A stretch of DNA of 64,000 nt from the NCBI GenBank assembly GCA_964582645.1, contig CAZOTB010000006.1, positions 1,972 through 65,971 on the forward strand, read 5' to 3'. This document shows, one piece after another, positions 5,088 through 41,663 of the stretch; the first letter of the stretch is position 1; each line of letters opens with the position of its first letter. The DNA comes from an uncultured Verrucomicrobiota bacterium. Its GTDB lineage: Bacteria; Verrucomicrobiota; Verrucomicrobiia; Palsa-1439; CAZOTB01. The notes under the pieces are model-generated. The model had not been told where the DNA came from. It did no database searches and saw nothing but the letters and a program-made list of their open reading frames with translations. The position numbers were made by a program, and so were the translations under genes.

Positions 5088-5156
5088 CAAGCTGAAGCTG
5101 GTACTCCAACCGATAGCTGCTCGATGGCTTCCGTTGGGAGTACAAGCTTCAGCTTG
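5088..5156. repeat. Hairpin repeat element, copy 1 (25-nt arms caagctgaagctggtactccaaccg / cgttgggagtacaagcttcagcttg, 19-nt loop)
   Basis: Imperfect inverted repeat 66 bp upstream of the BNR gene start. Homologous to the elements at 19917..19985 and 41548..41616. Confidence 0.85.
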
Positions 5157-5200
5157 CGTTTGGTCGGGCTCGGAAAAAAACCGAAATGTGCCCGACGAGG

Positions 5201-5956
5201 TTACGGTCCCCAGAAGTCGTAGCCGCCGTAGGCGCACCACTGATTCCAATCCGACGGCCAGGGCAGCGTGTTCTGCCACCATGCGCTGCCGAAGTTCATT
5301 GGCCCGCTGTTGTGGATGAACTCACCGTGCCCGTCCACGAAAACGAAGTTCAACCCTCGCCCTTGATGCCGTGGATACTCGTAGGTGCCGGATCCCCACT
5401 CGCCAAATGCCGGCCGATCGAGATAGCTCGGTTCAATGAAGTACCACGCCAGACACTCCGCCACCAGCACAGTGGTGTGCCGCCTTCTGGCCTCCGCGAG
5501 CGAATGCGTGGTGGCCGAGCCGGTGGCGAGCACGAATGCGCTGTTGGCTCCGTAGGGAACGCTGCCGCTCAGCCCCGCGCGGAGACTCGGACATCCGCGA
5601 CTTCGTTCGTTGCCATAAATGCGATTGATCAATCCATTCCCATTCCAGACGTTCGAGCCGCCGAGGTACGGAATGACCGCGACGTCCCATGCGTTCCCGC
5701 AGTGGTTGGTGTCGAGGTAGCCGTTGTTGTCCTCCGCGAGTAACTGCGTGCCGATGCCGACCTGCCGGAGATTGGCGAGACAGGCCGTGCGTTTGGCGGT
5801 TTCCCGGGCGTTCTGCAGAGCAGGCAAAAGCATCGCGGCGAGGATTGCGATGATCGCGACAACGACGAGGAGCTCGATGAGGGTGAAACTGGCCCGATGC
5901 TGGATTCTGGATGCTTGGTACTGGATACCCAGCATCAAGGATCGAGCATCCAGCAT
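5201..5956 (-). CDS. Prepilin-type N-terminal cleavage/methylation domain protein with DUF1559 (H-X9/10-DG) C-terminus
   Basis: [25 protein letters not shown]-terminal pilin-like helix and C-terminal [10 protein letters not shown]. The start is taken at the internal Met (MLDARS...) because the ORF track's 6016 start overlaps the upstream PEP-CTERM gene. Confidence 0.8.
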
Positions 5957-5970
5957 CTGCTCTCCACGGC

Positions 5971-6840
5971 TCATTCGCGCCGACGAAGGACGAGCAGGAC
6001 GCCACTTGCCGCACACAACAGGGCCGCGCTTGTCGGCTCGGGGACCACCAGTGTGAAATCATCGAAGCCGGCTCGCCGGCTCGCCTCGCCGGTTGTAGTT
6101 CCAAGCGACAAGACAATGCTTTGAATCTTCGAAAGGTCCCCACCCGCCCAGGTCAGCCCGCTGACATCGGCGCCATTTAGCGCGAGGCGGAAGGTGTCGC
6201 TTACGAAATCCGCCTGGATGGTCAGGTCCTGCCACGTGTTGACCTTGAATACCATGCCGGGAATCGTGTGTGTACCGCTGCCGTCCACGTACTGCACCGT
6301 TCCATCCAATCCGGAGCCGCCGTCGCGCAATCGAATGTCGAAGGCCGGACTCGTACCAACTGTTGCAGCGCTATCATAGCCAGTGATTCGCACGGCGCCG
6401 CGCCAGCCATCGTGCCCCGAGAGGCCGAAAATCTTGGTCGTCAGATCGAGCGCGGTGGCTGATTGCATCAAGGCCTGATCTGTGACCGAGATCGGCGCCC
6501 ATGCCTGCCCGACATTGCCACCCGTGTCGAAGCTCTGCATCGTGTGGAGGTACTGTTGACCGGAGGCAGCGGCAAAGGACGGGTAAGAAAACCCACCGGT
6601 CAGGTTCTGTGGATGTCGCACCTCTTGCACGTAGTACACCTGGTCCTCGACGACCGCCCAACTCGGTCCGACCACCGGGGTGGTGGGATCGTTGTCACTC
6701 GTTTCCAGCCAGTACGTGGCCGAGGACACCGGACTCTCGAAATCGTCTTTGAAGATGACGGTCTGTGCAGTGGCCGATGCGGCCCATGCCCATGCGGCGG
6801 CGACTGCGATCAAAACTTTGCCGTAGCGTTGTGTGCTCAT
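5971..6840 (-). CDS. PEP-CTERM sorting-domain secreted protein
   Basis: Signal peptide [26 protein letters not shown]. The C-terminus [25 protein letters not shown] has a PEP motif, a TM helix and an Arg-rich tail. Confidence 0.85.
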
Positions 6841-6911
6841 AATGTTTCTCCGTCTTTGTTCGGAGCCTACGAGTCACACGCAACCGAGTCGAGGTGCTCG
6901 ATTTGGTCACC

Positions 6912-8099: not shown

Positions 8100-8200
8100 C
8101 CCTGAGACAGGACAGCAAGAATGATTTCACACTTCCCGAAGTATGCAATCATCCTTGCTGCGCGCCGCTGTCGCGGCACAGCGGGCATCCTGACGGTTGG

Positions 8201-8560: not shown

Positions 8561-8561
8561 A

Positions 8562-16859: not shown

Positions 16860-17530
16860 AACTTGCGGGCGGCGCGGTCAATCCGCACCTCGTCGATCAG
16901 ACCTTCAAAGTCGCCATCGTGCGCCCGGTCGCCGATGCGCAGCGTGCGGTAGGGATTCGTGATGTCGAGCAACTCCTTCGTTGATACCGGCGTGCCCGCA
17001 ACGCCATCCACCACGAGCATCGCATTCGCTTTACGCTCGGCCACGAGCACAATGTGATGCCACTGACCGTCGGTGACCGTCGTCGGATGGGCGATGATGA
17101 TTCGGTGCTGGCCGTCGGCGATGACCGCCACGACCCTGCCAGCATCCAGCACGATCATCCAACCCGGCTCGACCTCGTCGCCCCGGCACTTTTTGTTGAT
17201 CAGATGCGCCCACCGGTTCGTCGTGGTGGTACGCATCCACAACTCGACGGTAAAATCGGTGGTTTCCCCAAAATCAAGGTCGGGTCGCTCGCCGCGTTCG
17301 CCGCCGCAGTCCACGAAATCATCGTCGCCGTCGAACTGCAGCGCCTGGCCGACCTTGCCGGGCATCAGTTTCGCGCCCGTGATCTGGCCGTGGTTGTTGC
17401 GCCCGCTCGTATCGCGCGCGACGCGGTTCGTGGCTTCGTCGAAATGCAGGAGCAGGATCGGGGCGTCCTCCGCGCAGGCGAGGGTTGTAGCGAGCAAAAG
17501 CAGCGTGAAGGCAAAAAAGGGGACATTCAT
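16856..17530 (-). CDS. Secreted LamG/concanavalin-A-like lectin domain protein
   Basis: Signal peptide MNVPFFAFTLLLLATTLACA and a Laminin_G_3-like body. The stop overlaps the GH95 start (ATGA). Start chosen at 17530 rather than the track's 17614. Confidence 0.7.
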   Translation of the reverse strand: MNVPFFAFTLLLLATTLACAEDAPILLLHFDEATNRVARDTSGRNNHGQITGAKLMPGKVGQALQFDGDDDFVDCGGERGERPDLDFGETTDFTVELWMRTTTTNRWAHLINKKCRGDEVEPGWMIVLDAGRVVAVIADGQHRIIIAHPTTVTDGQWHHIVLVAERKANAMLVVDGVAGTPVSTKELLDITNPYRTLRIGDRAHDGDFEGLIDEVRIDRAARKF

Positions 17531-17605
17531 AATTTTCGCCGCCAAAGATGGTTCTCTTTCGATTCGCGCATCGATGGCGAAAATTATGAATGTCCCCTTT
17601 TTTGC
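17511..17605. repeat. 30-bp perfect inverted repeat with a 35-nt spacer (17511..17540 / 17576..17605)
   Basis: gcaaaaaaggggacattcataattttcgcc and its exact reverse complement. The left arm contains the LamG start codon, and the structure lies 6 bp downstream of the DUF4838-like gene stop. Confidence 0.9.
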
Positions 17606-17610
17606 CTGGT

Positions 17611-20085
17611 TCATTCAAACCTCCATTCGCCGAAATTGTTGGGTTCGGCGAAATGTGCTTCGACGCTGTTCCAACTCGTGTACTCGTTGGCAGGACGTTC
17701 TTCGCGGGTCAGGTTCCCGAACCACACTGCGCCCGCGGGCGCTTCTTTCAGGCCGAGCGTGGCAAACGGAATCCGAAGTTCCGCCGTCCACGACGCGCCG
17801 TTGGTCCGGACGGCGCACGTCCACTCCAGGTTGTAGGCGGCGTTGTGCTTGAGGCCGTCCCACTGCGCGCCGGTCGGGTTCGTGGCGAGATGCCACCACT
17901 GATTGCGGTCCGACGTGTGACTGAAAAACACCTCGGCCACATCGTCCGCGTGGTAGAACCGGTCCGCATCGCGCGGCCATGACTGGCCCACGATCTCATC
18001 CGGTTTGGGTTCGGCGCAGTCGAACGCGATGTAGAGGTTCTGGTCGTCGTACACCAACCGGGCGGTGGTTGCCTTCGTGCCCGGTACGCGCATGCCGCGC
18101 ACCCGAAACGCATCCGCCACCGCCGCCTTCTGCCAAGCCGCGTCCGAGAGAGCGCCATTGACGGTTGGCGCAGCGACTCCCGCCGGCAGGCGCGGGATGG
18201 TCAGCGTGCGCGTCTCCGGCGCCCAAACGGGCTGCGGGTGGCGCGCGATGACGAACGAGTCGGTGGCCGGGACGGGGGGCCCGGGCGGGAGGTTGAGCAG
18301 TCCCGCTTGTCGCAGGTTCTCGCGAAGCAGGGCCAGGTTGGCGCCAAACATTTCCAGCCGTTTGCGTTGCGGTTCGGTGGCGGCGCGGTTCAACGCCTGC
18401 TGGTAGAGCGTCTCCATCCGGCCGTAAAGCGGCAGGTAAACGTCGCGCACCATTTCATAGTTCACTTCGTAATTGCGTATTGCGGTTTCAGTGAGCTTGT
18501 ACCGGCGAATGGCGTCATCGAGCATCGTGAACAAGTCGCGCATGGAAGTCCAGCCGGGGCCGTAGGCGCGGCGCAACCATTCTTCATACGTGCGCCGCAC
18601 ATCGAGGTCGCCGTCCCACGCCAGCTTGGCGTAGAGGTAATTGATCGGCGCGCCGTAACCCCAGGCTTCCGCGCCGACCAGGTACAGGCCGGTGCCGCCA
18701 AGGCGGTGGATGGTGGGAATCTCCAGGCTCAACAGTTCGAGGCTCGGCGGCGTGGGCGTGCCCGAGGCCGAGCGCAACCACACCGTGTAGCTCTGGTAGC
18801 TGAAGTGCCGGGTCAACTGCGCCCACTCACGCGCCACGCGCACGAACTCCTGCCGGTACTGCGGCTTGTACAAGGCATAGCCGTAGTAGTCGATGTGGGC
18901 CCAGTTGAGCGCGACGTTGGGTTCGAGCGTGATCGGTCGTTGCGGCGGGTACTGGTAGTTGAAGTACACGAGGCCGCAGAGCAGTTTGTCGGGATGCCTG
19001 GCGGCGACGAGCCGCGCGACGTCGTTGTAGAACTTGAGGATCAGGTAACTAAACGAATCGTTGCCGTGCGGGTCTTTCTCGATCAAGGGCCGGCACCGGT
19101 CGCACCGGCAAAAACCGGGGCCGTCGGCGGGCGAGATCGAAAGGACCGGGTACTCGGGATGTCGTTCAATGCTGCGGATCACGCCGTCAGCGAACGCGCG
19201 CACCACGTCTTCCCGGCTGGTGCAGAATTTGTCTTTGTCGCCGCCGACCGCGAGCCATTCGGGATGTTGTTTCAACAAAGCGGAGGGGATGTGGTCATCC
19301 CACGCATGCGCCATCTGCAACAGCAGCGTGCCGCCGAGTTTCTGGCGGCGCACCCATTCGTCCACAGCCGGGTGACCCGGATTGTGGGCGCCGTGTCCGC
19401 TCTCGTGGATGTACGCGAGCCGGCGCATCTGGAAATCGGGCGCCTCGGTGAGATTGATCCGCGGCAACCGCCACGTCGCGCGCTGGGGGATGTCCTCGCC
19501 CCATTCGCCCGGCAACAGCCAACGCACGTCGAGATACCTTTCGAGGAACGTGTACGTGCCGAGCAGTGTCCCACGGCTGATCCGCAAGTCACTGGGGGCG
19601 TACCCCGGTTGGAAGATCTGCTTGGAATCCGGATCATCGCGCCCGGCGATGAACAGGTCCGCGCCGCGCGTCCGAATCACAAAGCCGTCATCCGGCAGCC
19701 CGGACAAGTCAATCTGCCCGGTGTCACCGAGGGCGATCATCGGCGAGGCGGGTCTGTGGACGATGGGCAGTTTCTCCCCGGTGGCGATTTCGATGACGCG
19801 CTGGAGTTCCTGCGCGGCGAGCGTCACGGAAGAGGGCGCGTTGGCGTCATGATAGATCCGGTACGACGACTGAGTGCCGGTGTGAACACAAGAGACAAGG
19901 AAGAACGCGACGAAGAGCAAGCTGAAGCTTGTACTCCAAACGCAAGCTGGGAATGGTCTCGTTCGGAGTACAAGCTTCAGCTTGCTTCGTTTGCCCGTTC
20001 TCAAATCAATCCCTCGGCCCGCGCCAGCCAATACGCCCACAACCAGTGGACCAGCGCGTCGCCGTCGAAGGCGCGGGTCATCCAT
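17611..20085 (-). CDS. DUF4838-like putative glycoside hydrolase with a C-terminal CBM9/DOMON-like domain
   Basis: About 800 aa with a lipoprotein-like signal (LLFVAFFLVSC). The true start is probably the TTG near 19920 inside hairpin copy 2, because the 20085 ATG overlaps the upstream gene by 85 bp. Confidence 0.7.
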   Translation of the reverse strand: MDDPRLRRRRAGPLVVGVLAGAGRGIDLRTGKRSKLKLVLRTRPFPACVWSTSFSLLFVAFFLVSCVHTGTQSSYRIYHDANAPSSVTLAAQELQRVIEIATGEKLPIVHRPASPMIALGDTGQIDLSGLPDDGFVIRTRGADLFIAGRDDPDSKQIFQPGYAPSDLRISRGTLLGTYTFLERYLDVRWLLPGEWGEDIPQRATWRLPRINLTEAPDFQMRRLAYIHESGHGAHNPGHPAVDEWVRRQKLGGTLLLQMAHAWDDHIPSALLKQHPEWLAVGGDKDKFCTSREDVVRAFADGVIRSIERHPEYPVLSISPADGPGFCRCDRCRPLIEKDPHGNDSFSYLILKFYNDVARLVAARHPDKLLCGLVYFNYQYPPQRPITLEPNVALNWAHIDYYGYALYKPQYRQEFVRVAREWAQLTRHFSYQSYTVWLRSASGTPTPPSLELLSLEIPTIHRLGGTGLYLVGAEAWGYGAPINYLYAKLAWDGDLDVRRTYEEWLRRAYGPGWTSMRDLFTMLDDAIRRYKLTETAIRNYEVNYEMVRDVYLPLYGRMETLYQQALNRAATEPQRKRLEMFGANLALLRENLRQAGLLNLPPGPPVPATDSFVIARHPQPVWAPETRTLTIPRLPAGVAAPTVNGALSDAAWQKAAVADAFRVRGMRVPGTKATTARLVYDDQNLYIAFDCAEPKPDEIVGQSWPRDADRFYHADDVAEVFFSHTSDRNQWWHLATNPTGAQWDGLKHNAAYNLEWTCAVRTNGASWTAELRIPFATLGLKEAPAGAVWFGNLTREERPANEYTSWNSVEAHFAEPNNFGEWRFE
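19917..19985. repeat. Hairpin repeat element, copy 2 (26/25-nt arms gcaagctgaagcttgtactccaaacg / gttcggagtacaagcttcagcttgc, 18-nt loop)
   Basis: Near-perfect inverted repeat whose arms encode the first residues of the downstream secreted protein. Confidence 0.9.
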
Positions 20086-21452
20086 TTCTGATCGGGCGGC
20101 AACTGGTCGCGGTAATCAATCTTCCAGCGCATCTGTGGCAGGTCCATCGCTTCGAGAATGTCCCGCCCGGTATCCGCAGCGCCAAGGTCGGCGTGATACC
20201 GGTGAATCTGGAACGCCGCGCGCGCGAACATCGTCGGCGAATGGCCCGACTTCACGTCGGCCACGAAGCCTTTGTGGCGCCAGACGGGATTGGGTTGGCC
20301 GCCGGCGTAGAACGGTTTCTCGACTGGTTGTATCGCGCCCGTGGCCGGGTCGTAATAGAAATGGCCGCGCTCCAGGCAATCGTCGCCGATGGCCCGGCGG
20401 CCGGTCTCGTAAGCGACGCGGAGTTGACGCAGCCACGTGTCGCGTTGCGGGGCGTCGTGCTCCAGCAGGGGGATCAGCGACGCCGCGGCGGAGGCGGTAT
20501 GTTCGGGTACGGCTGGCCAGAGGAAGGGTTCCATTTCAGGTTGTGCGCCGGTCTCCTGACCGCGCACTACGTCCGACCGAAGGTCTCCAGTCCGGCGCGG
20601 GAGACCTGCGGTCGATGCCCCGGCGCGGTCGGGAGACCGGCGCCGAACACCGGTGCGGATTCCGCCTAAAGGCGGGACACCGAACATCGGCACGAAGGGC
20701 GGACCGGCTTTCACTTCCGGCAGCGCGGCGAGGCGCTCGAATTCGGCGCGGAAACGCTGTTCGCCGGTATGTTTCCAGGCGAGCCAATTGAAGACCGGAA
20801 ACCGGTTGAGCGGCCATTGCCAGTCGTGGGTGCGTTCGCGATAGGGATGCCGGTACTGCCGCCGCAACCACATCCCGGCAATGCCGCCGATGATCTCGCG
20901 AATCTTCGCGCGCTCGGCGTCGGTGGCCAGCGGGGCGAACTGGTCGAGACCGACCATGGCGTAGAGGCACTGGTCGGTGGACATCTCCCGGCTCAACCGA
21001 CCGCAGTGAAATTTGCTGAAGAACCCCGGCTCGACCGCCTGGGAGAGGTCGTACAGTTTCGCCAACGCGCGGAAGGTGCGCCGCGCTTGATCGAGCGCCG
21101 ACGCTTCCGCAGTGACGCGGTATTTCCACACCAGCGCGGCGAGATACGCGCCCGTGCACATGCCGGTATTCTCGTAGGCCATGTACGCGCCAAACTCCGC
21201 TTCGGTCGCCGCGCCGGGATGGCGCAGGATGTCCATGTCGGGCGTGAAGAAACCGCGCGCGAACGGGCGCATCGCTTCGGCGTCGATCCACGACAACACC
21301 AAGCCGTGGGCATTCACGAGAGATTGCTCGACGGCGTCCTCGAATTGGGCGGCGCGCTCGTTCGTAGTTAGGCACGGAGCGTCAGCGGAGTGCCGTGCCG
21401 TTCGGGGCCGAGCCTCAGCCACGACGCCACTCCGCTTCGCTTCGTGGCTCAC
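20001..21452 (-). CDS. hypothetical protein (483 aa), possibly an alpha/alpha-toroid hydrolase/epimerase-like fold
   Basis: Long ORF 16 bp downstream of the prepilin gene. It contains an internal low-complexity, palindrome-rich segment at about 20560-20660. Confidence 0.65.
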   Translation of the reverse strand: MSHEAKRSGVVAEARPRTARHSADAPCLTTNERAAQFEDAVEQSLVNAHGLVLSWIDAEAMRPFARGFFTPDMDILRHPGAATEAEFGAYMAYENTGMCTGAYLAALVWKYRVTAEASALDQARRTFRALAKLYDLSQAVEPGFFSKFHCGRLSREMSTDQCLYAMVGLDQFAPLATDAERAKIREIIGGIAGMWLRRQYRHPYRERTHDWQWPLNRFPVFNWLAWKHTGEQRFRAEFERLAALPEVKAGPPFVPMFGVPPLGGIRTGVRRRSPDRAGASTAGLPRRTGDLRSDVVRGQETGAQPEMEPFLWPAVPEHTASAAASLIPLLEHDAPQRDTWLRQLRVAYETGRRAIGDDCLERGHFYYDPATGAIQPVEKPFYAGGQPNPVWRHKGFVADVKSGHSPTMFARAAFQIHRYHADLGAADTGRDILEAMDLPQMRWKIDYRDQLPPDQKWMTRAFDGDALVHWLWAYWLARAEGLI

Positions 21453-25282: not shown

Positions 25283-26224
25283 CTACCCGAGGCGTGCCCT
25301 CTGTCGCAGGTAGGTTTGCAACAACTCCGCAAACGGCGTGGAAGTACGGGCGAGACAATATCCAATGCGGTTGGTGTGGCATGCGTTCTCGAGTTCGTGC
25401 ATGTACTCGCCCATCAACTGCCGGTAACGCTTGCGCACGTGACGCGGGTCGAGCTTGAGTTGCTCGAAGGTTTCCATGTCCTGAAAGATGGCTCGTCGGT
25501 CAAAGGTGAAATCAATCTCGGCATCGTCGAGCACGTGGAAGACGATGATGTCGTGCCGCAGATGCTGGAAATGTTTCAAGCCCTGGAGGATCTTCTGCGC
25601 ATCGTCGAGCAGGTCGCTGATGATGATGATCAACCCTCGGCGTTTGATGTTCGCGGCGAGCGCGTGCAGCACGGCGCCGGCATCGGTCTCGCCTCCCGGC
25701 TGGGCGTTGGCCAGCATCTCCAGGATCTTCTTCTTTTGGTTGGGCGTTGCCCGAGGGGGAAGGCTCCGGCGCAATTCCGTGTCGAACATGACCAAACCCG
25801 TGGCGTCCTGCTGCCGAAGAAGCAACTGCGTCAGACACGCCGCCAGGCACGAGCCGTAATGCAGCTTGGTGAGCGTGCCGCTGGTGAATCCCATCGAACC
25901 GCTGGTGTCGAGCAGGATGGTCGAGCGAAGATTGGTCTCAGCTTCGTACTGTTTGACGTAGTAGCGGTCGGTCTTGGCGAACACCTTCCAGTCAATGTGC
26001 CGAAGTTCGTCGCCCGGGGAGTACTCGCGGTGTTCGCTGAACTCGATGCTGAACCCGTGAAACGGGCTTTTGTGCATCCCGCTGATGAAACCCTCGACGA
26101 CGCGGCGCGCGAGCAGTTTGAGATCGCCGAGGCCGGTGACGATACGCGGGTCGGCAAGGTGCGGGGGGAGTTCGGAGGATGGCAGGCCTGTCGAGGATAG
26201 ACGATAGAGGATAGAGGATTGCAT
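25283..26224 (-). CDS. DUF58 family protein (vWA-like partner of MoxR)
   Basis: DUF58-like conserved core (FHGFSIEFSEHREYSPGDELRHIDWKVFAKTDRYYVKQYE) downstream of MoxR. The first 15 codons are encoded by the heptamer repeat. Confidence 0.85.
   Translation of the reverse strand: MQSSILYRLSSTGLPSSELPPHLADPRIVTGLGDLKLLARRVVEGFISGMHKSPFHGFSIEFSEHREYSPGDELRHIDWKVFAKTDRYYVKQYEAETNLRSTILLDTSGSMGFTSGTLTKLHYGSCLAACLTQLLLRQQDATGLVMFDTELRRSLPPRATPNQKKKILEMLANAQPGGETDAGAVLHALAANIKRRGLIIIISDLLDDAQKILQGLKHFQHLRHDIIVFHVLDDAEIDFTFDRRAIFQDMETFEQLKLDPRHVRKRYRQLMGEYMHELENACHTNRIGYCLARTSTPFAELLQTYLRQRARLG
26193..26218. repeat. GGATAGA-type heptamer tandem repeat (gaggatagacgatagaggatagagga), left partner of an inverted pair
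   Basis: Reverse complement of 26637..26662 with one mismatch. Confidence 0.85.
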
Positions 26225-26617: not shown

Positions 26618-26636
26618 GAGTTGCTCCTTCCTGCGA

Positions 26637-26662
26637 TCCTCTATCCTCTATCCTCTATCCTC
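26637..26662. repeat. CCTCTAT heptamer tandem repeat (tcctctatcctctatcctctatcctc), right partner of the inverted pair
   Basis: Its reverse complement equals the 26193..26218 repeat with one mismatch. It lies in the 5' UTR of the four-helix-bundle gene. Confidence 0.85.
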
Positions 26663-27674
26663 GAGCTTTTGCGTAATCCGCTTCCGTGGGTTCGGGGACG
26701 TTCTGGAGCAACTGCTCGATGATGTTCACCGAAGAAATCCCTTTCGCTTCCGCAGCGAAACTCGGCAGGATGCGGTGACGCAATACCGGCTTGGCGACGG
26801 CGCGGATGTCTTCGCAGGAGACATTATAGTGGCCGTGCAGCGCGGCGTGAGCCTTCGCGCCGAGCACCAGGTACTGCACGGCGCGCGGGCCGGCGCCCCA
26901 ATCAATCAGTTGCTTCGCAAAATCAGCCGAGTCAGTTTCCTTGGGGCGTGTGGCGCGGACGAGGTTCACGGCGTAGCCGGCCACGTGCGGCGTGATCGGG
27001 ATCTCGCGGACGAGGCGCTGGAAGTTGATGATGTCCGCGCCGCTGAAAACTGCCTCGAGCGCGGGCTTCTCCATCCCGGTTGTTCGCAGAGCGATCTGCA
27101 GCTCTTCTTCCTTCGTGGGATACGTGATCGCCACTTTGAACATGAACCGGTCGAGTTGCGCCTCGGGCAACGGATATGTTCCTTCCTGCTCGATCGGGTT
27201 CTGCGTCGCGAGCACGAAGAATGGTTCGTCCAGTTTGTAGTCGCCGCCGCCGATGGTGATCTTGTGTTCCTGCATCGCTTCGAGCAAGGCAGCCTGCGTC
27301 TTGGGCGGGGTGCGGTTGATTTCGTCGGCGAGGATGATGTTGGCGAAAATCGGCCCGTGAATGAACCGCACGCTGCGTTTGCCGGTGGTCATGTCTTCCT
27401 CCATCACGTCCGTACCGAGAATGTCCGACGGCATCAGGTCGGGCGTGAACTGGATGCGCTTGAACTTGAGGTGCAGTAGCCGGGCGAGCGTCGAGATCAT
27501 CAACGTCTTCGCCAGCCCGGGCACGCCTTCGAGCAGGCAGTGTCCCCCGCAAAGCACGGTGGTGAGCAGTTCATCCACCACATGCGTCTGGCCGATGATG
27601 ACCTTGGACAATTCGGCCTGGATTTTGTCGCGGCCATCGCGAAGCAGTTCGATCGAGTCGGTTGTTTGTGTCAT
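26655..27674 (-). CDS. MoxR-family AAA+ ATPase
   Basis: Walker A GVPGLAKT, Walker B LADEINR and a MoxR-like C-terminus, 339 aa. Confidence 0.95.
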   Translation of the reverse strand: MTQTTDSIELLRDGRDKIQAELSKVIIGQTHVVDELLTTVLCGGHCLLEGVPGLAKTLMISTLARLLHLKFKRIQFTPDLMPSDILGTDVMEEDMTTGKRSVRFIHGPIFANIILADEINRTPPKTQAALLEAMQEHKITIGGGDYKLDEPFFVLATQNPIEQEGTYPLPEAQLDRFMFKVAITYPTKEEELQIALRTTGMEKPALEAVFSGADIINFQRLVREIPITPHVAGYAVNLVRATRPKETDSADFAKQLIDWGAGPRAVQYLVLGAKAHAALHGHYNVSCEDIRAVAKPVLRHRILPSFAAEAKGISSVNIIEQLLQNVPEPTEADYAKARG

Positions 27675-32989: not shown

Positions 32990-34134
32990 GTATTCTCCGC
33001 GCGGTCATAGATTGAGCTTCTGAGAGGCTGGCGTGGACAGCGCAAATCCAGTACAATCAGATCGAGTTGGTCGCTTGACGATCATGCTTCAACTGGAATT
33101 CCGTTTCGAGGACATCGAGTTCTTCGAACGCCAGCGGTTCGAGCATCCTCACCCCTGGCTGCAACGCAAGTTTGAAGCCCTCTTCCTCAAAAGCCACCAC
33201 CTGCCGCATCAGACCATCTGCGAACTGTGCGGGATTTGTGGCAACACCTTGCGCCGCTACCTCATCGAGTACCAGCAGGGGGGCCTCGCCCACGTGCAGG
33301 AACTACCCTTTCACCGTCCCTCCAGCGTCTTGGAATCGCATCGCGGCTTCCTGCGAGAGGAGTTCACGCTGCGACCGGTGGCTACCGTCCGAGAGGCGGC
33401 GGCGCGCATCGCTGAACTCACCGGCGTGCGCCTGTGCCTGACCCAGACCCGGGATTGGTTGCATCGGCTCGGTCTGAAGTGGCGCAAGGTGGCACCGATC
33501 CCGGCCAAGGCCGATCCGGCCGCCCAAGCCGAGCTCAAGGCTCAGAAGCTCGAACCGCGTCTGCAGGAGGCGCGGGCGGGCCAACGGGCGGTCTATTTCG
33601 TGGATGCGGCTCACTTTGTCTATGGGGCATTTCTGGGGTGTTTATGGTCGCTGACGCGGGTGTTTGTGCGCACGCCGTCCGGTCGGCAGCGCTTCAACGT
33701 GCTGGGGGCGCTCGATGCGCTGACGCACGAACTGATCACGGTGACCAACGAGACGTATATCAACGCGCTGAGTGTGTGTCAGTTGCTGCGACAACTGGCG
33801 GCGCAAGCCGGGGGCAAGGCGGTGACCGTGGTGCTGGACAACGCGCGCTACCAGCACTGTGCGCTGGTGGAGACGGAGGCGGCGGCGTTGGGGATCGAGT
33901 TGCTGTTTTTGCCGCCGTATTCGCCGAACCTGAACTTGATCGAGCGGTTGTGGAAGTTTGTGAAGAAGCGCTGTTTGAACTCGAGGTATCATGCAGATTT
34001 TGGGGTGTTTCGGGGTGCGATCCAGGAATGTTTGGCGAAGATTGGAACCCGCCACAAAGCGGAGCTCGATACGCTACTGACCCTCAATTTCCAGACGTTT
34101 GAAAAAGCTCAATCTATGACCGCGTGAAGAATAC
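32990..34134 (+). mobile_element. IS630-family insertion sequence (about 1.15 kb) with 29-bp imperfect terminal inverted repeats
   Basis: TIRs gtattctccgcgcggtcatagattgagc (32990..33017) and gctcaatctatgaccgcgtgaagaatac (34107..34134) share 26/29 identity. A single transposase ORF lies inside, and the element's GC is higher than the surrounding island. Confidence 0.8.
33033..34127 (+). CDS. IS630/Tc1-mariner family transposase (DDE_3)
   Basis: Hallmark LLFLPPYSPNLNLIERLW motif. An N-terminal HTH region is present. The start may be the internal Met at 33084. Confidence 0.85.
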   Translation: MDSANPVQSDRVGRLTIMLQLEFRFEDIEFFERQRFEHPHPWLQRKFEALFLKSHHLPHQTICELCGICGNTLRRYLIEYQQGGLAHVQELPFHRPSSVLESHRGFLREEFTLRPVATVREAAARIAELTGVRLCLTQTRDWLHRLGLKWRKVAPIPAKADPAAQAELKAQKLEPRLQEARAGQRAVYFVDAAHFVYGAFLGCLWSLTRVFVRTPSGRQRFNVLGALDALTHELITVTNETYINALSVCQLLRQLAAQAGGKAVTVVLDNARYQHCALVETEAAALGIELLFLPPYSPNLNLIERLWKFVKKRCLNSRYHADFGVFRGAIQECLAKIGTRHKAELDTLLTLNFQTFEKAQSMTA

Positions 34135-34140
34135 ATCCGA

Positions 34141-36532: not shown

Positions 36533-39355
36533 CTATGGCGCCAGAAACACATCCGCCGCGTCCACGTAAATCCGCGTGCCGGCAGGGATGACTTTCCGCC
36601 CCTCCTTTGCCGAGCCGAGGAAGTGCATATATCCCTTGGGTTCGCCCGTGGTGGCCGGACCGGTGCGCCAACTGAACGTCCGCCACGGTTCGACGTTGTT
36701 GATCGGTTCAAGCCAGCCCCATTGCTGCAAGGTGACGGCAGGAGCGCCCACGATCGAGTACACACCATCGCTTTGCGTGGTCGAACGGCGCAGCTCCGAC
36801 CAGCGAAAATCCGCGTCGGTGCAGAGGATGTTACACCGCGCGAACAGCCGGTCGCCAATGCCGGTGGGAAATCGGATTGTGACGTACACGGGCGGGGCCA
36901 CCGCCTGGGGGAGTTCGATCTGCACACATTTGCGTCCGTCCGTTCCGAATCCATCCACGATGGAAAACTTCGCAGCCTGTGCCTTCGGCGGTTCGGCGGG
37001 CGTCGAGAACTCGACGTGCGCGATGGCGTTGCTCACCACCTCGGTTTTCTCGAATGATGGATCCGGCAACAGCGGCGTCGGCCAGTATCGTTTCGCCGCG
37101 TCGGCGAACAGCGCTTTGCTCTGGATCGCGTCCTTGACGAGCGCCTGGAGGGCGGTCGCTTCCTTGACGGCCTCCTCCTCCTTGGTTGTCTTAAGGACCG
37201 CCTCGACGAGCCCTGCGGCCTTCTCGTACTCCTTCTTGAAATAGGCCGCGCGAATCTCAAGCAAGGTCGAACGCAGCGCATACCGTCCGGTCGGCTCGGC
37301 CTTGGTCAAGGTCTTGAGTTCGGCGAGCGCAGCGTCGGTGTCCTGGGTTGCGAGCAGCAACTGCGCGTTCAGATACACCACGTCGGGATTCAATCGGGCA
37401 TCGGGAAACTCGAACACGAGGCTGTCGAAACTGGTGCGAACCTTGTCGGCGAGCGCGGTGATCGTGTCCCGGCTTCCGATTTCCGAGTAGCCGCCGGGAT
37501 CGAACACCATCTTCGTCAACTCGCCCACGCCCTGCCGCAAGGTGCTGTAGAGCGACCCGCGACGGATGGCCTGTTCCCGTTCGGTGCGTCCGTCCCCCAC
37601 CTCGACCAGTTTGGCTTCGTCGTAGGCCTTGCGCGCAGAAGCGAGGTCGCCTTGCTGCAGGAACGCATCGCCGAGCGCGATTTGCGCCGAGCGTTCCAGT
37701 TTGGGATCGTCGCCACCCTTGTCCTTGATAATCTGGTTGAACGCCTCGATGGACTGCGGATACCGAGCCGCGCGCAACTGCAGCTTCCCGATTTCCAGAC
37801 GAACTCTCGTCCGCAACGTCCGCTGCTTCTCGAGCTTGGCGTCCATCTGTTGCAGTTCCGCCACCGCGGCGTCCCACTGCCCGAGGTCGGCTTTTGCGTC
37901 GGCGATCTTTTGTCGCGCGGAAAGCTCCACCGTCGTCGGAACCGTGCCCGACTTCGTGAGGTACAATGGCGCGAGCTTCAGGATCGTCTCGGCGCGCAGC
38001 TTGCGGTCAGAGATTTGTTCGGCGATGGCGATCAACGTCCACAACGTCCCCGGCTCGTACTGGCCGAGCATCGGCGTGACGAGGCGAATCATCTCCTGCG
38101 CGGCAACGGGGCTGACCGAGTTGGACATCGGGATTTTCTGCTTTGGCAACGCCGAGAAACTGGTGGCGAGCACCACCTTTTGAAACTTCGATGCGCCCGC
38201 GGTGAGCGTGACGGTGTAGCGGCCCGGCTTGACGTACACGTGCGCCGGGTTCGGTTCGGCGCTCGTCGTTCCGTCGCCGAAGTCCCACTGATACGTCACG
38301 CCCTCCGTTTTTCCGACCGTGCGGTTGTGAAACCGCACCATCACGACCGGCTGGTCCGCGCCGAGAAGCATGTCGGTTTGGAAATCGTTGAAGAATGCCG
38401 CGGTCGCCTGATCGCACAGCCTGTAGTCGCGCACCATGCTGCCGACGACCGATGGATGCCACACCGGCGCGACCGGCTTCGCGACGAGGTTTGCATAGTG
38501 GTACTCGGGCCATGGCACCAGCCACGAAATGCCCGTCACGCCGAACCCGGACACGCGCGCCTGGAGAATTTCCAGCGCCTGCGTGCCGCGCGGTAGCAGC
38601 ACGTCGGCGATGCTTGGCGTCTTGACGGTCACGTCGGCAGGAGTCGAGGCCACCGGCTGCCCGTTCACCGCCAGAAAACCATGATCTTTCGCAAAGAGGC
38701 CAACCTTGTACACGTCTTCACGCGGGGTCTGCCACGCACCCCATGTGCGCGACATGAACTGGTTCTCGGACTCGTCGAACGGGTTGCAGCGGGATTGGGT
38801 GTCGTCAAGGACCGCCACACCCATGCTGGTCGCGGCGGCGCTCCACAGTTTCCGCATCGAGTCCCACGTGCTCGAATCGCCATCGGGGCGTGCACGCGTC
38901 TCGTAGAAGAGGCCGCGACCGAAGTTGGTCGGTGCCACTCCGCTGGTGAGCGATCCGCCGAAGAACAGATGCGCCGTGTCCTCTCCCGGCGGGACAGAGA
39001 ACAAAACCATGCTCGCGTTGAGCGGGTGGGTGTAGATAATTTCGATGGGGCGCGCGTTGCCCTTGGAGTCCGTCACGCGGACGTTCTGCGAACCCGCAGC
39101 GAGGATGCCACCGGAAAAGAAGCGAACGGCACAGACCGCAACGTCGTTGGTGGGACGCTCGCCGGACATCTCCACCCGGTAGCGAGCGACCGCGCCGTCC
39201 GGCCAGGGGACGTCGCCCTGCGCGAGGATGGAGGATAGAGGATAGAGGATGGCCGGGATCAGCCAACGCGCATTCTTGATGGCGGATTCCATTCTCCATC
39301 TTCCATTCTCCATCCTCCCGCGCTTCACAGCACACCTCCCGGGGGCGAGGTGCAC
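36533..39355 (-). CDS. Secreted PKD-domain and TPR-repeat protein (940 aa)
   Basis: PKD signature WDFGDGTTSAEPNPAHVYVKPGRYTVTL, followed by TPR-like helical repeats and an N-terminal signal-like leader. Confidence 0.85.
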   Translation of the reverse strand: MHLAPGRCAVKRGRMENGRWRMESAIKNARWLIPAILYPLSSILAQGDVPWPDGAVARYRVEMSGERPTNDVAVCAVRFFSGGILAAGSQNVRVTDSKGNARPIEIIYTHPLNASMVLFSVPPGEDTAHLFFGGSLTSGVAPTNFGRGLFYETRARPDGDSSTWDSMRKLWSAAATSMGVAVLDDTQSRCNPFDESENQFMSRTWGAWQTPREDVYKVGLFAKDHGFLAVNGQPVASTPADVTVKTPSIADVLLPRGTQALEILQARVSGFGVTGISWLVPWPEYHYANLVAKPVAPVWHPSVVGSMVRDYRLCDQATAAFFNDFQTDMLLGADQPVVMVRFHNRTVGKTEGVTYQWDFGDGTTSAEPNPAHVYVKPGRYTVTLTAGASKFQKVVLATSFSALPKQKIPMSNSVSPVAAQEMIRLVTPMLGQYEPGTLWTLIAIAEQISDRKLRAETILKLAPLYLTKSGTVPTTVELSARQKIADAKADLGQWDAAVAELQQMDAKLEKQRTLRTRVRLEIGKLQLRAARYPQSIEAFNQIIKDKGGDDPKLERSAQIALGDAFLQQGDLASARKAYDEAKLVEVGDGRTEREQAIRRGSLYSTLRQGVGELTKMVFDPGGYSEIGSRDTITALADKVRTSFDSLVFEFPDARLNPDVVYLNAQLLLATQDTDAALAELKTLTKAEPTGRYALRSTLLEIRAAYFKKEYEKAAGLVEAVLKTTKEEEAVKEATALQALVKDAIQSKALFADAAKRYWPTPLLPDPSFEKTEVVSNAIAHVEFSTPAEPPKAQAAKFSIVDGFGTDGRKCVQIELPQAVAPPVYVTIRFPTGIGDRLFARCNILCTDADFRWSELRRSTTQSDGVYSIVGAPAVTLQQWGWLEPINNVEPWRTFSWRTGPATTGEPKGYMHFLGSAKEGRKVIPAGTRIYVDAADVFLAP

Positions 39356-40548
39356 GCGACATAAAGCACGCCGTTCTTTGCGACCACCATGTCGTTGATC
39401 ATGGTCGCCTTCAGGTCAAACCGCTGCGGCTCTCCCTTGGGGAGGCCGTCTGCATCGAGGGAGTAAATCGAGAGAAGCGACCGCGAGTTGGCGATGCAGA
39501 GACGGTCGTGGACATCGTCCACGCACGCGAGGCGAACCGGATCCACCTGTACGAACTGAGGCACGCTCGTGAGCCGACCCTCGCGCGTGAGTTGATAAAT
39601 CCCCATCTCCGAGCCGCGGGCATTCGGGACGTACAGCTTCCGATGGCGGACGCTGACCGGCGGGGCAGAATTGTACTTGCTCTGCGTCGCGATCGCCTGT
39701 GTGAAGGAGAGGGCACGGCCATCTTCGGTGAACGTAAACACGATCTTGGTGGTGCCGACGTCGCTTCCATAACAACGCCGCCATTCCGGCACGCGCCTCC
39801 ATTCCGAGAGTCTGATCGGGGTCTTCAACTGGAAATCGGATGGCTGCCGCCCCGATCTCTTCGGCCTGGGCGCGCCGCGGCGTGGAGGGGGCGCCGGTTG
39901 AGTCTTCAAGGTCTGAACCAACTCCTCGTCCGCAACCGGCCAGAGGCTCACCCACGCGTGGCTTTCGCCGAAATACAGGAATCGTCCCAGCGGGTCCACG
40001 AACAAGGAGCGAATCGCCAAGGTGCGTCGCGTTGCCCGGAGTCGCTGCAAGGGTTCATGGGGCATCCCTTCCTCGTCCAAGGCCAGCGCGGCAACGAAGG
40101 CAACGTTGGTATCCTGTCGAAAGGTGGCGAGCTTATCGGGCGTGGCATTGACGTAGAGCTGCGCCTGGGTCGGGTCCACCGCGATGTCGGTGATCGCGTA
40201 CTGGGAACCCGGCAAGGGAACTCCCTCGACGATCCCATCGGCGTGTTGCCGGCGGCTGTCGGAAATCAGTCTGCCTTCGCCGTCGAGTTGGAACGTCGTC
40301 AACGCCATGCCGTTCGTCCTACCGGCAAGACCGACGTAGAGCAGCGGTTTTGTCGGATGCAACTCCACTGAACGCGCGCCGAGGACGGGGACCGGGATGA
40401 CGTGGGGAGGGAGTTCCTGCGCAAGACACCGGGTGAGAATGGAGGAAAGAAGATAGAGGATGGCAAAGCAGCTTGCGCGGCGAACCAGCGCCCTCTTCCC
40501 TCGTCCATTTTCCATCTTGAATTCGTTCATGGCGCGGGAATGACACAC
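39325..40548 (-). CDS. Secreted lactonase-like 7-bladed beta-propeller family protein
   Basis: Signal-like leader ...CFAILYLLSSILTRCLAQ and beta-propeller-like repeats. Overlaps the downstream gene by 31 bp. Confidence 0.7.
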   Translation of the reverse strand: MCHSRAMNEFKMENGRGKRALVRRASCFAILYLLSSILTRCLAQELPPHVIPVPVLGARSVELHPTKPLLYVGLAGRTNGMALTTFQLDGEGRLISDSRRQHADGIVEGVPLPGSQYAITDIAVDPTQAQLYVNATPDKLATFRQDTNVAFVAALALDEEGMPHEPLQRLRATRRTLAIRSLFVDPLGRFLYFGESHAWVSLWPVADEELVQTLKTQPAPPPRRGAPRPKRSGRQPSDFQLKTPIRLSEWRRVPEWRRCYGSDVGTTKIVFTFTEDGRALSFTQAIATQSKYNSAPPVSVRHRKLYVPNARGSEMGIYQLTREGRLTSVPQFVQVDPVRLACVDDVHDRLCIANSRSLLSIYSLDADGLPKGEPQRFDLKATMINDMVVAKNGVLYVACTSPPGGVL

Positions 40549-41663
40549 CGAAAACCAATCGTCACCGAATGCGGCACCGGAGCGGGCTCAAGGGCAGCTT
40601 CGTCGGCATTCGAACGGCGCGCCCAGGCCCGTGATTGCACGAAACCGATGTAGCCCCAATGCCCGCCCTTGACGACGTGGAAGGCATTCGTGCCCGGCAA
40701 CACGGCTGGGACAACACTCGGAGCAGGAACAACATTCGTGGCCGCGACCACATTCGTAGCGGCAACGGGCGGCACATTCGTGCTTGGTTGCGGGGGCAAA
40801 ACCGTGACGGCCGTCCACTCATCCGCGGTCCATTCCGAGACGTTGCCGGCCAGGTCCATCACGGCGAACGTGCTGCGGTCGTTGGTGGTGGTGCCGCAGG
40901 GTCGCGTGGCCCGGTCGCCGCGCTCGGCGGTATTGGCGTTGTCGGGATTCCACTGCTCGCCCCATGGAAACGACCAGTTGTTCGTCCCGCGCGCAGCTCG
41001 TTCCCATTGCACCTCGGTGGGCAAGGCTTTGCCGGCCCACTTCGCGTACGCCATCGCGTCGTCCCACGTGACGCAGGTGACCGGATAATCCGCCGCATCA
41101 TAAATCGGATCGGCGCTGGTGAACCACGTGCCATTCGGCCACGTGAACGCCTGATAGAACCAGTGTGAGAACGCCGCCAGCGGCACGGGCGCGGCGTGTT
41201 TGGTGGCGTCCATGAATTTCTTGTAGCGGCGATTGCTGACTTCGAAGCGATCCATGAAGAAACCGTTCACGAAGATGTTGGTCGCAGGCAGCACGTACTT
41301 GAAAAGCTCTTTCCCGGCGACGCGCACGTGACTGGCGGAAAGGTCGGCGCCGCCGGCAGGTTTCACCCCGGTATTGATCAACCCGCCATCGGCACCGGGA
41401 AACGATCCGGGCGCGAGCCCGATGATGCATTCCCCGGGCGGCACAAAAACCATTTCGGCGCCGTCGGTTTGGGAGATGTAGAAATCGCCCTGAGCGACGA
41501 CGCCGGGAGGAAGCGTGGCCGGTTTCTGCGCGAGCGAAGGAAACGAGCACGACAGAAGCAAGCTGAAGCTGGCACTCCAAACGAGAGCCTGAAAAGCCGA
41601 TGTTTGGAGTACAAGCTTCAGCTTGCCGGCCCCGCTCGCTGTTGACCCGTCTCGCCGCCTCAT
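40527..41663 (-). CDS. Formylglycine-generating enzyme (FGE-sulfatase / SUMF1) family protein
   Basis: GNVSEWTADEW, KGGHWGY and IGFRCV signature motifs. The start is uncertain because hairpin copy 3 spans the N-terminal codons. Confidence 0.85.
   Translation of the reverse strand: MRRRDGSTASGAGKLKLVLQTSAFQALVWSASFSLLLSCSFPSLAQKPATLPPGVVAQGDFYISQTDGAEMVFVPPGECIIGLAPGSFPGADGGLINTGVKPAGGADLSASHVRVAGKELFKYVLPATNIFVNGFFMDRFEVSNRRYKKFMDATKHAAPVPLAAFSHWFYQAFTWPNGTWFTSADPIYDAADYPVTCVTWDDAMAYAKWAGKALPTEVQWERAARGTNNWSFPWGEQWNPDNANTAERGDRATRPCGTTTNDRSTFAVMDLAGNVSEWTADEWTAVTVLPPQPSTNVPPVAATNVVAATNVVPAPSVVPAVLPGTNAFHVVKGGHWGYIGFVQSRAWARRSNADEAALEPAPVPHSVTIGFRCVIPAP
41548..41616. repeat. Hairpin repeat element, copy 3 (arms gcaagctgaagctggcactccaaacg / tttggagtacaagcttcagcttgc, 19-nt loop)
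   Basis: Homologous to the elements at 5088 and 19917. The arms overlap the signal-peptide codons of the FGE-family gene. Confidence 0.9.

What the first reader, a model, noticed from the sequence alone, without database searches (positions are those of the whole stretch)
5088..41616. Three-copy family of ~70-bp hairpin elements (conserved 25-26-nt arms, variable 18-19-nt loops) at the 5' ends of glycan-degradation genes
Copies lie at 5088..5156 (upstream of the BNR sialidase), 19917..19985 (start of the DUF4838-like gene) and 41548..41616 (start of the FGE-sulfatase-family gene). The arms are GCAAGCTGAAGCT(T/G)G(T/C)ACTCCAAACG and its complement, and each arm also contains the mini-palindrome AAGCTGAAGCTT. 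Arms are conserved while loops differ completely, which points to selection on the stem (an RNA structure or a large dyad operator). In two copies the 3' arm is translated as the start of a signal peptide (WSTSFSLL...); in the third it is out of frame, so the conservation is not at protein level. All three lie upstream of minus-strand secreted hydrolase genes. The element could be a shared cis-regulatory unit or a MITE-like repeat.
Basis: seen in the sequence. Interest (0 to 1): 0.7.

Follow-up and report, generated by a model that had tools for sequence, protein, structure and literature searches.

The report
REP-type palindromic repeats at gene junctions
The three hairpins are copies of a known kind of bacterial repeat, paired REP palindromes linked to a RAYT transposase; two sit in frame inside signal-peptide coding regions, and they are not a regulator specific to glycan-degradation genes.

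Summary
Three ~70-nt hairpins lie at 5087-5157, 19917-19985 and 41558-41626; the finding places the third 10 nt too far left. Each is an inverted pair of a 21-nt module: GGAGT, then a 5-6-bp stem with a TTCA loop. The same module is multicopy and mostly extragenic in MAGs labelled as at least six phyla, and its small stem covaries. Four genes for REP-associated tyrosine transposases (NCBIfam NF047646) in the fetched loci are flanked on both sides by GGAGT-footed hairpins. One of them, L119, carries REPs nearly identical to the window's arms. The elements are therefore REP dimers (REPIN/BIME-like), not a glycan-specific regulatory unit and not a classical MITE. Every copy examined lies within about 45 nt downstream of the stop codon of an upstream gene, the usual REP position. 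In the window's tightly packed operons, that position falls inside the 5' coding end of the next gene. Copies 2 and 3 are exactly 69 nt, share one codon phase, and add 23 residues to the signal peptide. The closest homologues found, including syntenic ones for copy 3, lack the element. Intragenic REP dimers of this size are already described, notably in Opitutus terrae. This is a new member of a known kind, of modest interest.

The parts
5087..5157 (-). REP dimer copy 1 (71 nt, tags inside). It is intergenic, 44 nt after the stop (5201) of the N_methyl/DUF1559 gene and 65 nt before the ATG (5022) of the BNR gene. It is the most degenerate copy.
5087..5107 (-). REP module of copy 1: GGAGTACCAGCTTCAGCTTGA
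5137..5157 (+). REP module of copy 1: GGAGTACAAGCTTCAGCTTGC
19917..19985 (-). REP dimer copy 2 (69 nt). It starts 15 nt after the stop (20001) of the upstream gene and lies in frame inside the lipoprotein signal peptide of the DUF4838/CBM9 gene.
19917..19937 (-). REP module of copy 2: GGAGTACAAGCTTCAGCTTGC
19965..19985 (+). REP module of copy 2: GGAGTACAAGCTTCAGCTTGC
41558..41626 (-). REP dimer copy 3 (69 nt). It starts 33 nt after the stop (41660) of the upstream 1236-aa gene and lies in frame inside the signal peptide of the FGE-sulfatase-family gene.
41558..41578 (-). REP module of copy 3: GGAGTGCCAGCTTCAGCTTGC
41606..41626 (+). REP module of copy 3: GGAGTACAAGCTTCAGCTTGC
17611..20004 (-). 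DUF4838 + CBM9 gene carrying copy 2. The likely start is the TTG at 20004, which overlaps the upstream TGA (TTGA). The N-terminus is MRTGKRS[KLKLVLRTRPFPACVWSTSFSL]LFVAFFLVSC.
40527..41663 (-). FGE-sulfatase-family gene carrying copy 3. Its ATG at 41663 overlaps the upstream TGA (ATGA), and the same overlap is kept in the syntenic homologue L109.
3901..5022 (-). BNR-repeat gene downstream of copy 1, with no evident signal peptide
5201..6016 (-). Prepilin-type N_methyl + DUF1559 gene. Its stop lies 44 nt upstream of copy 1.
20001..21452 (-). Upstream gene with no Pfam match. Its stop lies 15 nt upstream of copy 2.
41660..45370 (-). Upstream 1236-aa gene, syntenic in L106 and L109. Its stop lies 33 nt upstream of copy 3.

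Best explanation
Each hairpin is a dimer of two inverted REP (repetitive extragenic palindrome) modules. This makes it a REPIN/BIME-like, non-autonomous element. The module is an unpaired GGAGT foot (GTTTGGAGT in this lineage) followed by a 5-6-bp stem with a TTCA loop. In the window the two feet face inward, the 'TT' dimer type. By analogy with E. coli and Pseudomonas REP systems, the modules are recognised as single-stranded DNA hairpins and are spread or maintained by a REP-associated tyrosine (HUH/Y1) transposase, RAYT, encoded elsewhere in the genome. This mobilisation step is inferred, not shown. The elements accumulate just downstream of stop codons. In this genome adjacent genes overlap (ATGA, TTGA), so that position lies inside the 5' end of the next gene. 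Only insertions that keep the frame open survive there. Copies 2 and 3 are 69 nt (23 codons), share one codon phase, and read KLKLVL.T......VWS.SFSL, which lengthens the n/h regions of the signal peptides without destroying them. Any effect on expression, such as a 3' stabiliser for the upstream message or a brake on translation of the downstream gene, would be a by-product and was not shown.
For: (1) The arms are inverted copies of a 21-nt module. Several MAGs have many copies, and the MAGs are labelled Acidobacteria, Desulfobacterales, Lentisphaerae, Chloroflexota, Verrucomicrobiota and planctomycetes among others, each lineage with its own spacer and partner stems. (3) In partner modules chosen without requiring pairing, the mini-hairpin covaries: CAAGC/GCTTG, CAAAC/GTTTG, CGGAC/GTCCG, CAGGC/GCCTG, CACGC/GCGTG. 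On the alignment, 89% of cells are paired and 26 cells show changes on both sides, against 10.2 in shuffles, with 0 of 500 shuffles reaching the observed value. (4) The modules are extragenic: 14 of 111 lie deep inside ORFs of 150 aa or more, against 78% of random positions. (5) About 0.8 Mb of module-selected DNA contains four RAYT genes, matching NF047646 at E = 7e-28, 2e-22, 2e-23 and 7e-21. Each is flanked on both sides by GGAGT-footed hairpins. In L119 the flanking REPs (ACAAGCTGAAGCTTGAACTCCAAAC and GTTTGGAGTTCAAGCTTGAGCTTGT) match the window arms at about 23 of 25 positions, including the extended GTTTGGAGT foot. (6) The closest homologues lack the element and have signal peptides of about 16-22 residues. 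L109 keeps the same ATGA start. Deleting the 69 nt of copy 2 restores MRTGKR-IFVAFFLVSC, a canonical lipoprotein signal peptide (read from the sequence). (7) Related copies L115 and L113 also lie at or within 10 nt of stop codons, between co-directional or convergent genes. Published work describes the same REP placement and intragenic REP dimers encoding 20-30 residues, most numerous in Opitutus terrae (PMC3733652). (8) The supplement of PMC6006769 lists GGAGTACAAACCTAGGTTTGTACTCC under a subclass 2.2 RAYT entry.
Against: The 64-kb window has no RAYT gene, and the rest of the source genome could not be searched. Its copy number and its possession of a RAYT are therefore unknown. The foot is GGAG(T), not the canonical GT[AG]G. 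The three loops are largely different, so nothing shows recent copying of the dimer as a unit. The window-type dimer is rare in the JGI metagenome set, with 9 loci. Translation through copies 2 and 3 is inferred from the conserved start and from the need for a signal peptide; it was not observed.
Confidence: 0.85

Rival explanations
1. A dedicated cis-regulatory RNA hairpin in the 5' region of secreted glycan-degrading enzyme genes, controlling translation or mRNA stability as a shared regulon element.
For: The hairpins are very stable on the sense strand, and more stable there than on the antisense strand because of G-U pairs. In copy 2 the extended helix reaches the codons immediately after the TTG start. 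All three copies lie in minus-strand carbohydrate-related operons.
Against: No Rfam family matches. The closest homologues of both genes lack the hairpin. The same module occurs next to unrelated genes in many phyla and is mostly downstream of genes. The long stem is not the conserved unit. The G-U asymmetry rests on 2-3 positions. The gene after copy 1 has no evident signal peptide.
Confidence: 0.07
2. A classical MITE: a deletion derivative of a DDE insertion sequence, mobilised in trans through its terminal inverted repeats.
For: It is short, consists almost entirely of inverted repeats, and is multicopy. An IS630-like element is present in the window at 32990-34134.
Against: No target-site duplication or conserved flank surrounds any copy. 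The IS630-like TIR (GTATTCTCCGCGCGG...) is unrelated to the arms. Modules also occur singly, in tandem and in either relative orientation, which fits REPs and not TIR-bounded MITEs. The genes they flank encode Y1/HUH RAYTs, not DDE transposases.
Confidence: 0.04
3. A protein-level feature: a conserved signal-peptide or sorting motif (KLKLVL...VWSTSFSLL) shared by secreted proteins, with the DNA palindrome being incidental.
For: Copies 2 and 3 use the same frame, and the peptide resembles an n-region followed by an h-region.
Against: Copy 1 is non-coding and has a stop in that frame. Homologues have ordinary short signal peptides. A protein search with the peptide alignment found no candidate in 5.8 billion clusters. 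Conservation follows reverse-complement symmetry, which codons do not explain.
Confidence: 0.02
4. A large dyad operator, or an integron attC-like recombination site, bound by a dedicated double-stranded-DNA protein.
For: The elements have dyad symmetry, and the inner CCAAAC/GTTTGG loosely recalls attC core sites.
Against: The cross-phylum multicopy distribution, the independent covariation of the sub-hairpins, the absence of cassette-like spacing and the association with RAYT genes all argue against it.
Confidence: 0.02

Closest known systems
E. coli REP/BIME sequences and their transposase RayT (TnpA_REP)
   Same: Both have short imperfect palindromes with an unpaired 5' foot, arranged in alternating orientation, extragenic and close to the 3' ends of genes. 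In both, a single-copy Y1/HUH transposase gene is flanked by the repeats. The L008 protein matches E. coli RayT at E = 1e-16.
   Different: The foot is GGAG(T), or GTTTGGAGT, instead of GTAG. The stem is shorter (5-6 bp) and has a conserved TTCA loop. The associated RAYTs have an HYH (NHYH/NYYH) HUH motif and are about 30% identical to one another across lineages.
REPINs of Pseudomonas (Bertels and Rainey) with Group 2/3 RAYTs
   Same: Two inverted REPs form one long hairpin of about 70-100 nt that behaves as a unit, and the RAYT gene is flanked by them.
   Different: The spacers of the three window copies are largely unrelated, so replication of the whole dimer as a unit is not evident. The host lineage is probably Verrucomicrobiota or another member of the PVC group (Planctomycetes-Verrucomicrobia-Chlamydiae), not Gammaproteobacteria. 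The same core occurs in several phyla.
GTAG-tagged REP superfamily, including intragenic REP dimers of Opitutus terrae (Di Nocera et al. 2013, PMC3733652)
   Same: The architecture is modular: tag, stem and short loop. Both show HH, TT and HT dimer types, covarying stems and location just downstream of ORFs. In-frame dimers encoding 20-30 residues occur in both, often at N-termini and most often in a verrucomicrobium.
   Different: The tag differs at its second position (GGAG against GTAG, GYAG or GTGG). This sequence was not found in the supplementary files of that paper that are held as text.
Rickettsia palindromic elements (RPE)
   Same: Both are palindromic repeats tolerated in frame inside protein-coding genes, where they add a peptide segment.
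   Different: RPE-1 is longer (about 100-150 bp) and has no known RAYT association (from my own knowledge). Here only 2 of 3 copies are coding, and both lie in signal peptides.
MITEs such as Correia elements
   Same: Both are small, non-autonomous repeats rich in inverted repeats that can affect neighbouring genes.
   Different: The window elements have no target-site duplication and no DDE parent element, and their modules also occur singly and in tandem.

Membership tests
REP / REPIN (RAYT-associated repetitive extragenic palindromes) | Unit is a short (20-40 nt) imperfect palindrome able to form a stem-loop | tested here: met
   The 21-nt module has a 5-6-bp stem and a 4-nt loop, and the stem covaries.
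REP / REPIN (RAYT-associated repetitive extragenic palindromes) | Conserved unpaired tetranucleotide foot GT[AG]G at the 5' side of the stem | tested here: not met
   An invariant unpaired foot is present, but it reads GGAGT, so the strict consensus is not met. GGAGT-footed REPs are listed under RAYT entries in the supplement of PMC6006769.
REP / REPIN (RAYT-associated repetitive extragenic palindromes) | Many copies per genome, predominantly extragenic | tested here: inconclusive
   This is met in other genomes. For the window's own genome only 3 dimers in 64 kb are known.
REP / REPIN (RAYT-associated repetitive extragenic palindromes) | Units paired in inverted orientation (HH/TT dimers) forming a larger hairpin | tested here: met
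   All 3 window copies are TT dimers. HH and TT dimers occur elsewhere.
REP / REPIN (RAYT-associated repetitive extragenic palindromes) | A RAYT (Y1/HUH, NF047646/PF01797) gene flanked by the same repeats (REPtron) | tested here: met
   Four REPtrons were found in other genomes: L008, L040, L072 and L119. The L119 REPs nearly match the window arms. No RAYT lies within the window itself.
REP / REPIN (RAYT-associated repetitive extragenic palindromes) | Binding, cleavage or mobilisation of the repeat by its RAYT | not testable with these tools
   This needs biochemistry or comparison of strains.
MITE | Terminal inverted repeats matching a parent IS, plus target-site duplications | tested here: not met
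   No duplication or conserved flank is present, and the only IS in the window has unrelated TIRs.
Described structured RNA family (Rfam) | Match to a curated covariance model | tested here: not met
   No family reached its gathering score in the window or in 19 loci. At a permissive E-value threshold only chance-level miRNA hits appeared.
Gene-linked cis-regulatory leader | Conserved presence upstream of, or within, orthologous genes | tested here: not met
   The element is absent from the closest homologues of both carrier genes.

The most novel reading that the evidence does not exclude
GGAGT-footed REPs with a TTCA-loop hairpin could form a distinct, so far unnamed REP superfamily served by an HYH-type RAYT clade. 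Its 19-21-nt core is nearly identical in MAGs from at least six phyla, while the RAYTs themselves have diverged to about 30% identity. That pattern would imply either repeated inter-phylum transfer of REPtrons or extreme constraint on the recognition hairpin, both at odds with the view that REPIN-RAYT systems are vertically inherited and lineage-specific. In this PVC-group lineage one open frame of the dimer encodes an n-region-like KLKLVL segment followed by an h-region-like VWSTSFSLL segment. This could let the dimer colonise signal-peptide coding regions preferentially.
Probability: 0.25. Interest if true: 0.5.

Novelty: new member of a known kind. Interest (0 to 1): 0.3.

Why it matters
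For annotation, the result removes a tempting false lead. The hairpins are not a regulon signal for polysaccharide-degradation genes. The long N-terminal extensions of two secreted proteins come from in-frame insertion of a selfish repeat, which should be taken into account when calling starts and predicting signal peptides. For mobile-element biology, it adds a REP family with a GGAG(T) foot and its own RAYT clade in PVC-group bacteria and other poorly studied phyla. It also gives a clean example of how operon compaction forces REPs into coding sequence. The apparent sharing of one REP core across phyla deserves a proper census.

Tried and rejected
- **Rfam:** the window and 19 loci gave no family at gathering thresholds, and a permissive search gave only chance-level miRNA hits. 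The recalled candidates Acido-Lenti-1 and Chloroflexi-1 were therefore dropped.
- **Literature search for the core sequence:** it returned one irrelevant paper.
- **All-against-all clustering of ORFs in the 101 loci:** no broadly recurrent neighbour gene emerged. The only informative cluster was the three RAYT ORFs.
- **Viral contig scan:** a single hit, so a phage vector is not indicated.
- **Strand asymmetry of G-U pairs as evidence for RNA-level selection:** only 2-3 informative positions, so it was judged uninformative (and reading of the sequence).
- **attC site and dyad operator:** considered and rejected on distribution, sub-hairpin covariation and the RAYT association.
- **Protein-level motif:** rejected because copy 1 is non-coding and homologues lack the peptide.
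- **Supplements of PMC3733652:** no matching REP sequence.
- **PMC2817692:** no mention of these taxa.
Full report
**1. The observation.**
Reading the three sites and searching with the 26-nt arm at up to 3 mismatches gives exactly six arms in three hairpins:
- 5087-5112 / 5132-5157
- 19917-19942 / 19960-19985
- 41558-41583 / 41601-41626

Shuffled sequence gives none. The third copy lies 10 nt to the right of the coordinates in the finding. The repeat finder reports the same families. The hairpins are very stable, at -50 to -64 kcal/mol on the minus strand with z-scores of -7 to -10. Loops are 17-19 nt and poorly conserved. Similarity stops exactly at the outer GCAAGC...GCTTGC ends, with no duplicated flank.

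**2. Anatomy.**
All flanking genes are on the minus strand.
- **Copy 1** is intergenic. It lies 44 nt after the stop of an N_methyl/DUF1559 gene (5201-6016) and 65 nt before the ATG of a BNR-repeat gene (3901-5022). That gene shows no signal peptide.
- **Copy 2** begins 15 nt after the stop (20001) of the upstream gene. It lies inside the N-terminal coding region of a DUF4838/CBM9 protein.
- **Copy 3** begins 33 nt after the stop (41660) of a 1236-aa gene. It lies inside the N-terminus of an FGE-sulfatase-family protein, whose ATG overlaps the upstream TGA.

Copies 2 and 3 are each 69 nt, enter the codon at the same phase, and read KLKLVL[RQ]T-x6-VWS[TA]SFSL. The frame beginning GCA AGC TGA is closed by a stop.

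**3. The arms are copies of a widespread module.**
A few hits are chance matches in coding sequence (Sphaerisporangium, Agathobacter). Most come from MAGs that contribute many loci each. These MAGs are labelled as follows:
- Blastocatellia, Pyrinomonadaceae and other Acidobacteria
- Desulfobacterales and Desulfococcaceae
- Lentisphaerae, Victivallales and Victivallis
- Chloroflexota, Thermoflexales and Anaerolineales
- Verrucomicrobiota
- Pirellulales and Phycisphaerae
- KSB1, Moduliflexus and others

The recurring unit is GGAGT followed by a 5-6-bp stem, a TTCA or TTTA loop and the returning stem. I collected partner modules by foot and loop only, without asking for pairing. Their stems covary: CAAGC/GCTTG, CAAAC/GTTTG, CGGAC/GTCCG, CAGGC/GCCTG, CACGC/GCGTG. 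On the alignment, 89% of cells pair. Twenty-six cells show changes on both sides, against 10.2 in shuffles, and 0 of 500 shuffles reach the observed value. Slid controls pair at 17-40%.

Within one dimer the two small hairpins often differ from each other, for example GCGGAC...GTCCGC next to GCAAGC...GCTTGC in Chloroflexota.

Each lineage has its own spacer and partner stem, which argues against contamination. Modules are strongly extragenic: 14 of 111 lie deep within ORFs of 150 aa or more, against 78% of random positions in the same loci. Dimers with feet outward (HH) dominate in Acidobacteria and Desulfobacterota. Dimers with feet inward (TT), as in the window, occur in Verrucomicrobiota and in some Lentisphaerae and Chloroflexota. 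No Rfam family matches.

**4. Link to a transposase.**
A phmmer search with E. coli RayT (taken from NC_000913.3) against all ORFs of the loci found three homologues. A profile built from these found a fourth in L119. All four match NCBIfam NF047646, 'REP-associated tyrosine transposase', at E = 7e-28 to 7e-21. Two score above the curated cut-off and two score 0.5 and 5 bits below it. The first three also match Pfam Y1_Tnp; L119 was not scanned against Pfam.

Each gene is flanked on both sides by GGAGT-footed hairpins:
- **L008:** modules within about 40 nt of both ORF ends.
- **L040 (Lentisphaerae):** TT dimers CACGCTAAAGCYGTGAACTCCAAC...GTTGGAGTTCACAGCTTYAGCGTGTC on both sides.
- **L072:** an inverted pair GGAGTGCTGAAGCTTGCTTCAGC.
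- **L119** (metagenome contig, 59% G+C, retrieved with a pattern for the window-type dimer): arrays of GTTTGGAGTTCAAGCTTGAGCTTGT and ACAAGCTGAAGCTTGAACTCCAAAC on both sides. The second of these matches the window arm GCAAGCTGAAGCTTGTACTCCAAAC at 23 of 25 positions, and both share the extended GTTTGGAGT foot.

The L119 and L040 proteins are 52% identical. L008 is about 30% identical to L040 and L072. All carry an HYH-type HUH motif and a Y...NP motif. This is the REPtron arrangement described for REP-RAYT systems (PMC3733652; PMC6006769). The window itself has no RAYT.

**5. The window copies are lineage-specific insertions.**
For copy 3, the closest homologues (56-66% identity) have signal peptides of about 16-22 residues directly before the conserved AQKPA. 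The operon is syntenic. L109 keeps the same ATGA stop/start overlap followed by MKFCAVFLFLALNAFAQK, whereas the window has 33 extra nt plus the 69-nt element at that point.

For copy 2, the closest homologues begin with ordinary lipoprotein signal peptides such as MRVSISLLGLVVLGGC. Removing the 69 nt from the window sequence gives MRTGKR-IFVAFFLVSC, a canonical lipoprotein signal peptide (sequence; the deletion is my inference). None of the homologous loci contains a module.

Two other window-type copies from a metagenome that also holds a relative of this organism lie at or within 10 nt of stop codons. One sits between co-directional genes (L115) and one between convergent genes (L113). The common denominator is thus 'just after a stop codon', the position reported for REPs between unidirectional and convergent ORFs (PMC3733652). 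Where genes overlap, as here, that position is the 5' coding end of the next gene, and only frame-preserving copies can persist. The same paper reports intragenic REP dimers encoding 20-30 residues, frequent at N-termini and most numerous in the verrucomicrobium Opitutus terrae.

**6. Mechanism and confidence.**
- **Shown:** the module structure, its covariation, its extragenic multicopy distribution, the REPtron association, absence from the closest homologues, and frame preservation.
- **Inferred:** that a RAYT elsewhere in this genome recognises the GGAGT-footed hairpin on single-stranded DNA and spreads or maintains the repeats; that translation starts at 41663 and 20004 and reads through the element; and that any effect on mRNA stability or translation is secondary.

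I put 0.85 on the REP-dimer identification. The rivals (dedicated regulatory RNA, DDE-type MITE, protein motif, operator or attC site) together get about 0.15, for the reasons listed under each.

**7. Comparison and novelty.**
The element works like E. coli REP/BIME and Pseudomonas REPINs and fits the modular 'tagged REP' scheme of Di Nocera et al. It differs in its foot (GGAG(T) rather than GT[AG]G), its conserved TTCA loop, its RAYT clade and its hosts. GGAGT-footed REPs already appear, without comment, in the supplement of Quentin et al. 2018 under subclass 2.2 RAYT entries. I did not find this family in the main text of the papers I read.

The host is probably a member of Verrucomicrobiota or another PVC-group lineage. 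The best DUF4838 hit, at 59% identity, is from a Verrucomicrobia MAG, and the window has DUF1559/N_methyl genes. I rate this a new member of a known kind. The one less ordinary aspect is the near-identity of the REP core across phyla while the RAYTs have diverged. It rests on a capped scan with a pattern that fixed that core, so it needs a proper census.

Noticed in passing
window 17509-17540 and 17576-17607: A perfect 32-nt inverted repeat with a 35-nt spacer, unique in the window. It lies between the stop of the DUF4838 gene (17611) and the Laminin_G_3 gene. On the minus strand the downstream arm (GGCGAAAATTATGAATGTCCCCTTTTTTGCCT) contains an in-frame ATG at 17530-17528 that opens a good signal peptide (MNVPFFAFTLLLLATTL). 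The hairpin would therefore sequester the probable start codon. It is unrelated in sequence to the REP family.
   Followed up: partly
window 3847-3911: An imperfect palindrome built from AGGCAAAATGATT-like units, at the 3' end of the BNR gene (stop at 3901). It shares the AGGCAAAA beginning with the 17509 palindrome.
   Followed up: no
window 57373-57420: A perfect 48-nt palindrome, CACTTTACCAAAAAAGTGGCTCAC|GTGAGCCACTTTTTTGGTAAAGTG.
   Followed up: no
window 32990-34134: An IS630-like insertion sequence. ORF 33033-34127 (+) has DDE_3 and HTH_33 domains and is flanked by 30-bp terminal inverted repeats at 32990-33019 and 34105-34134, 93% complementary.
   Followed up: partly
window 26191-26223, 26632-26664, 39220-39263, 40434-40464: Runs of the heptamer GAGGATA (3-4 units), in both orientations and apparently near gene boundaries. 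Their function is unknown.
   Followed up: no
window 59441-59504: A tandem array of the octamer GCACTYAG, about 8 copies.
   Followed up: no
window 2440-2531 and 3773-3864: A 92-nt direct repeat, 86% identical. It appears to correspond to the 5' ends of two paralogous minus-strand genes.
   Followed up: no
L112, L114, L117, L118 (Ga0075121) and L027: In a genome of about 44% G+C, labelled Verrucomicrobiota for L027, the same TT REP dimer is nested inside a larger repeated palindrome. That palindrome has outer inverted repeats GTAAATAGTCAGTGAACCACGT...ACATGTGGTTCACTGACTATTTAC, making a composite element.
   Followed up: no
L008 39-171; L090 7763-7900: Tandem amplifications of single REP modules with a 45-46-nt period. 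The L008 array lies a few hundred nt from a RAYT gene.
   Followed up: no
window 5163-5195: A further hairpin, GTCGGGC...GCCCGAC, with an inner UUCGG-U7-CCGA stem. It lies between the stop of the DUF1559 gene and REP copy 1 and is not followed by a T-run.
   Followed up: no
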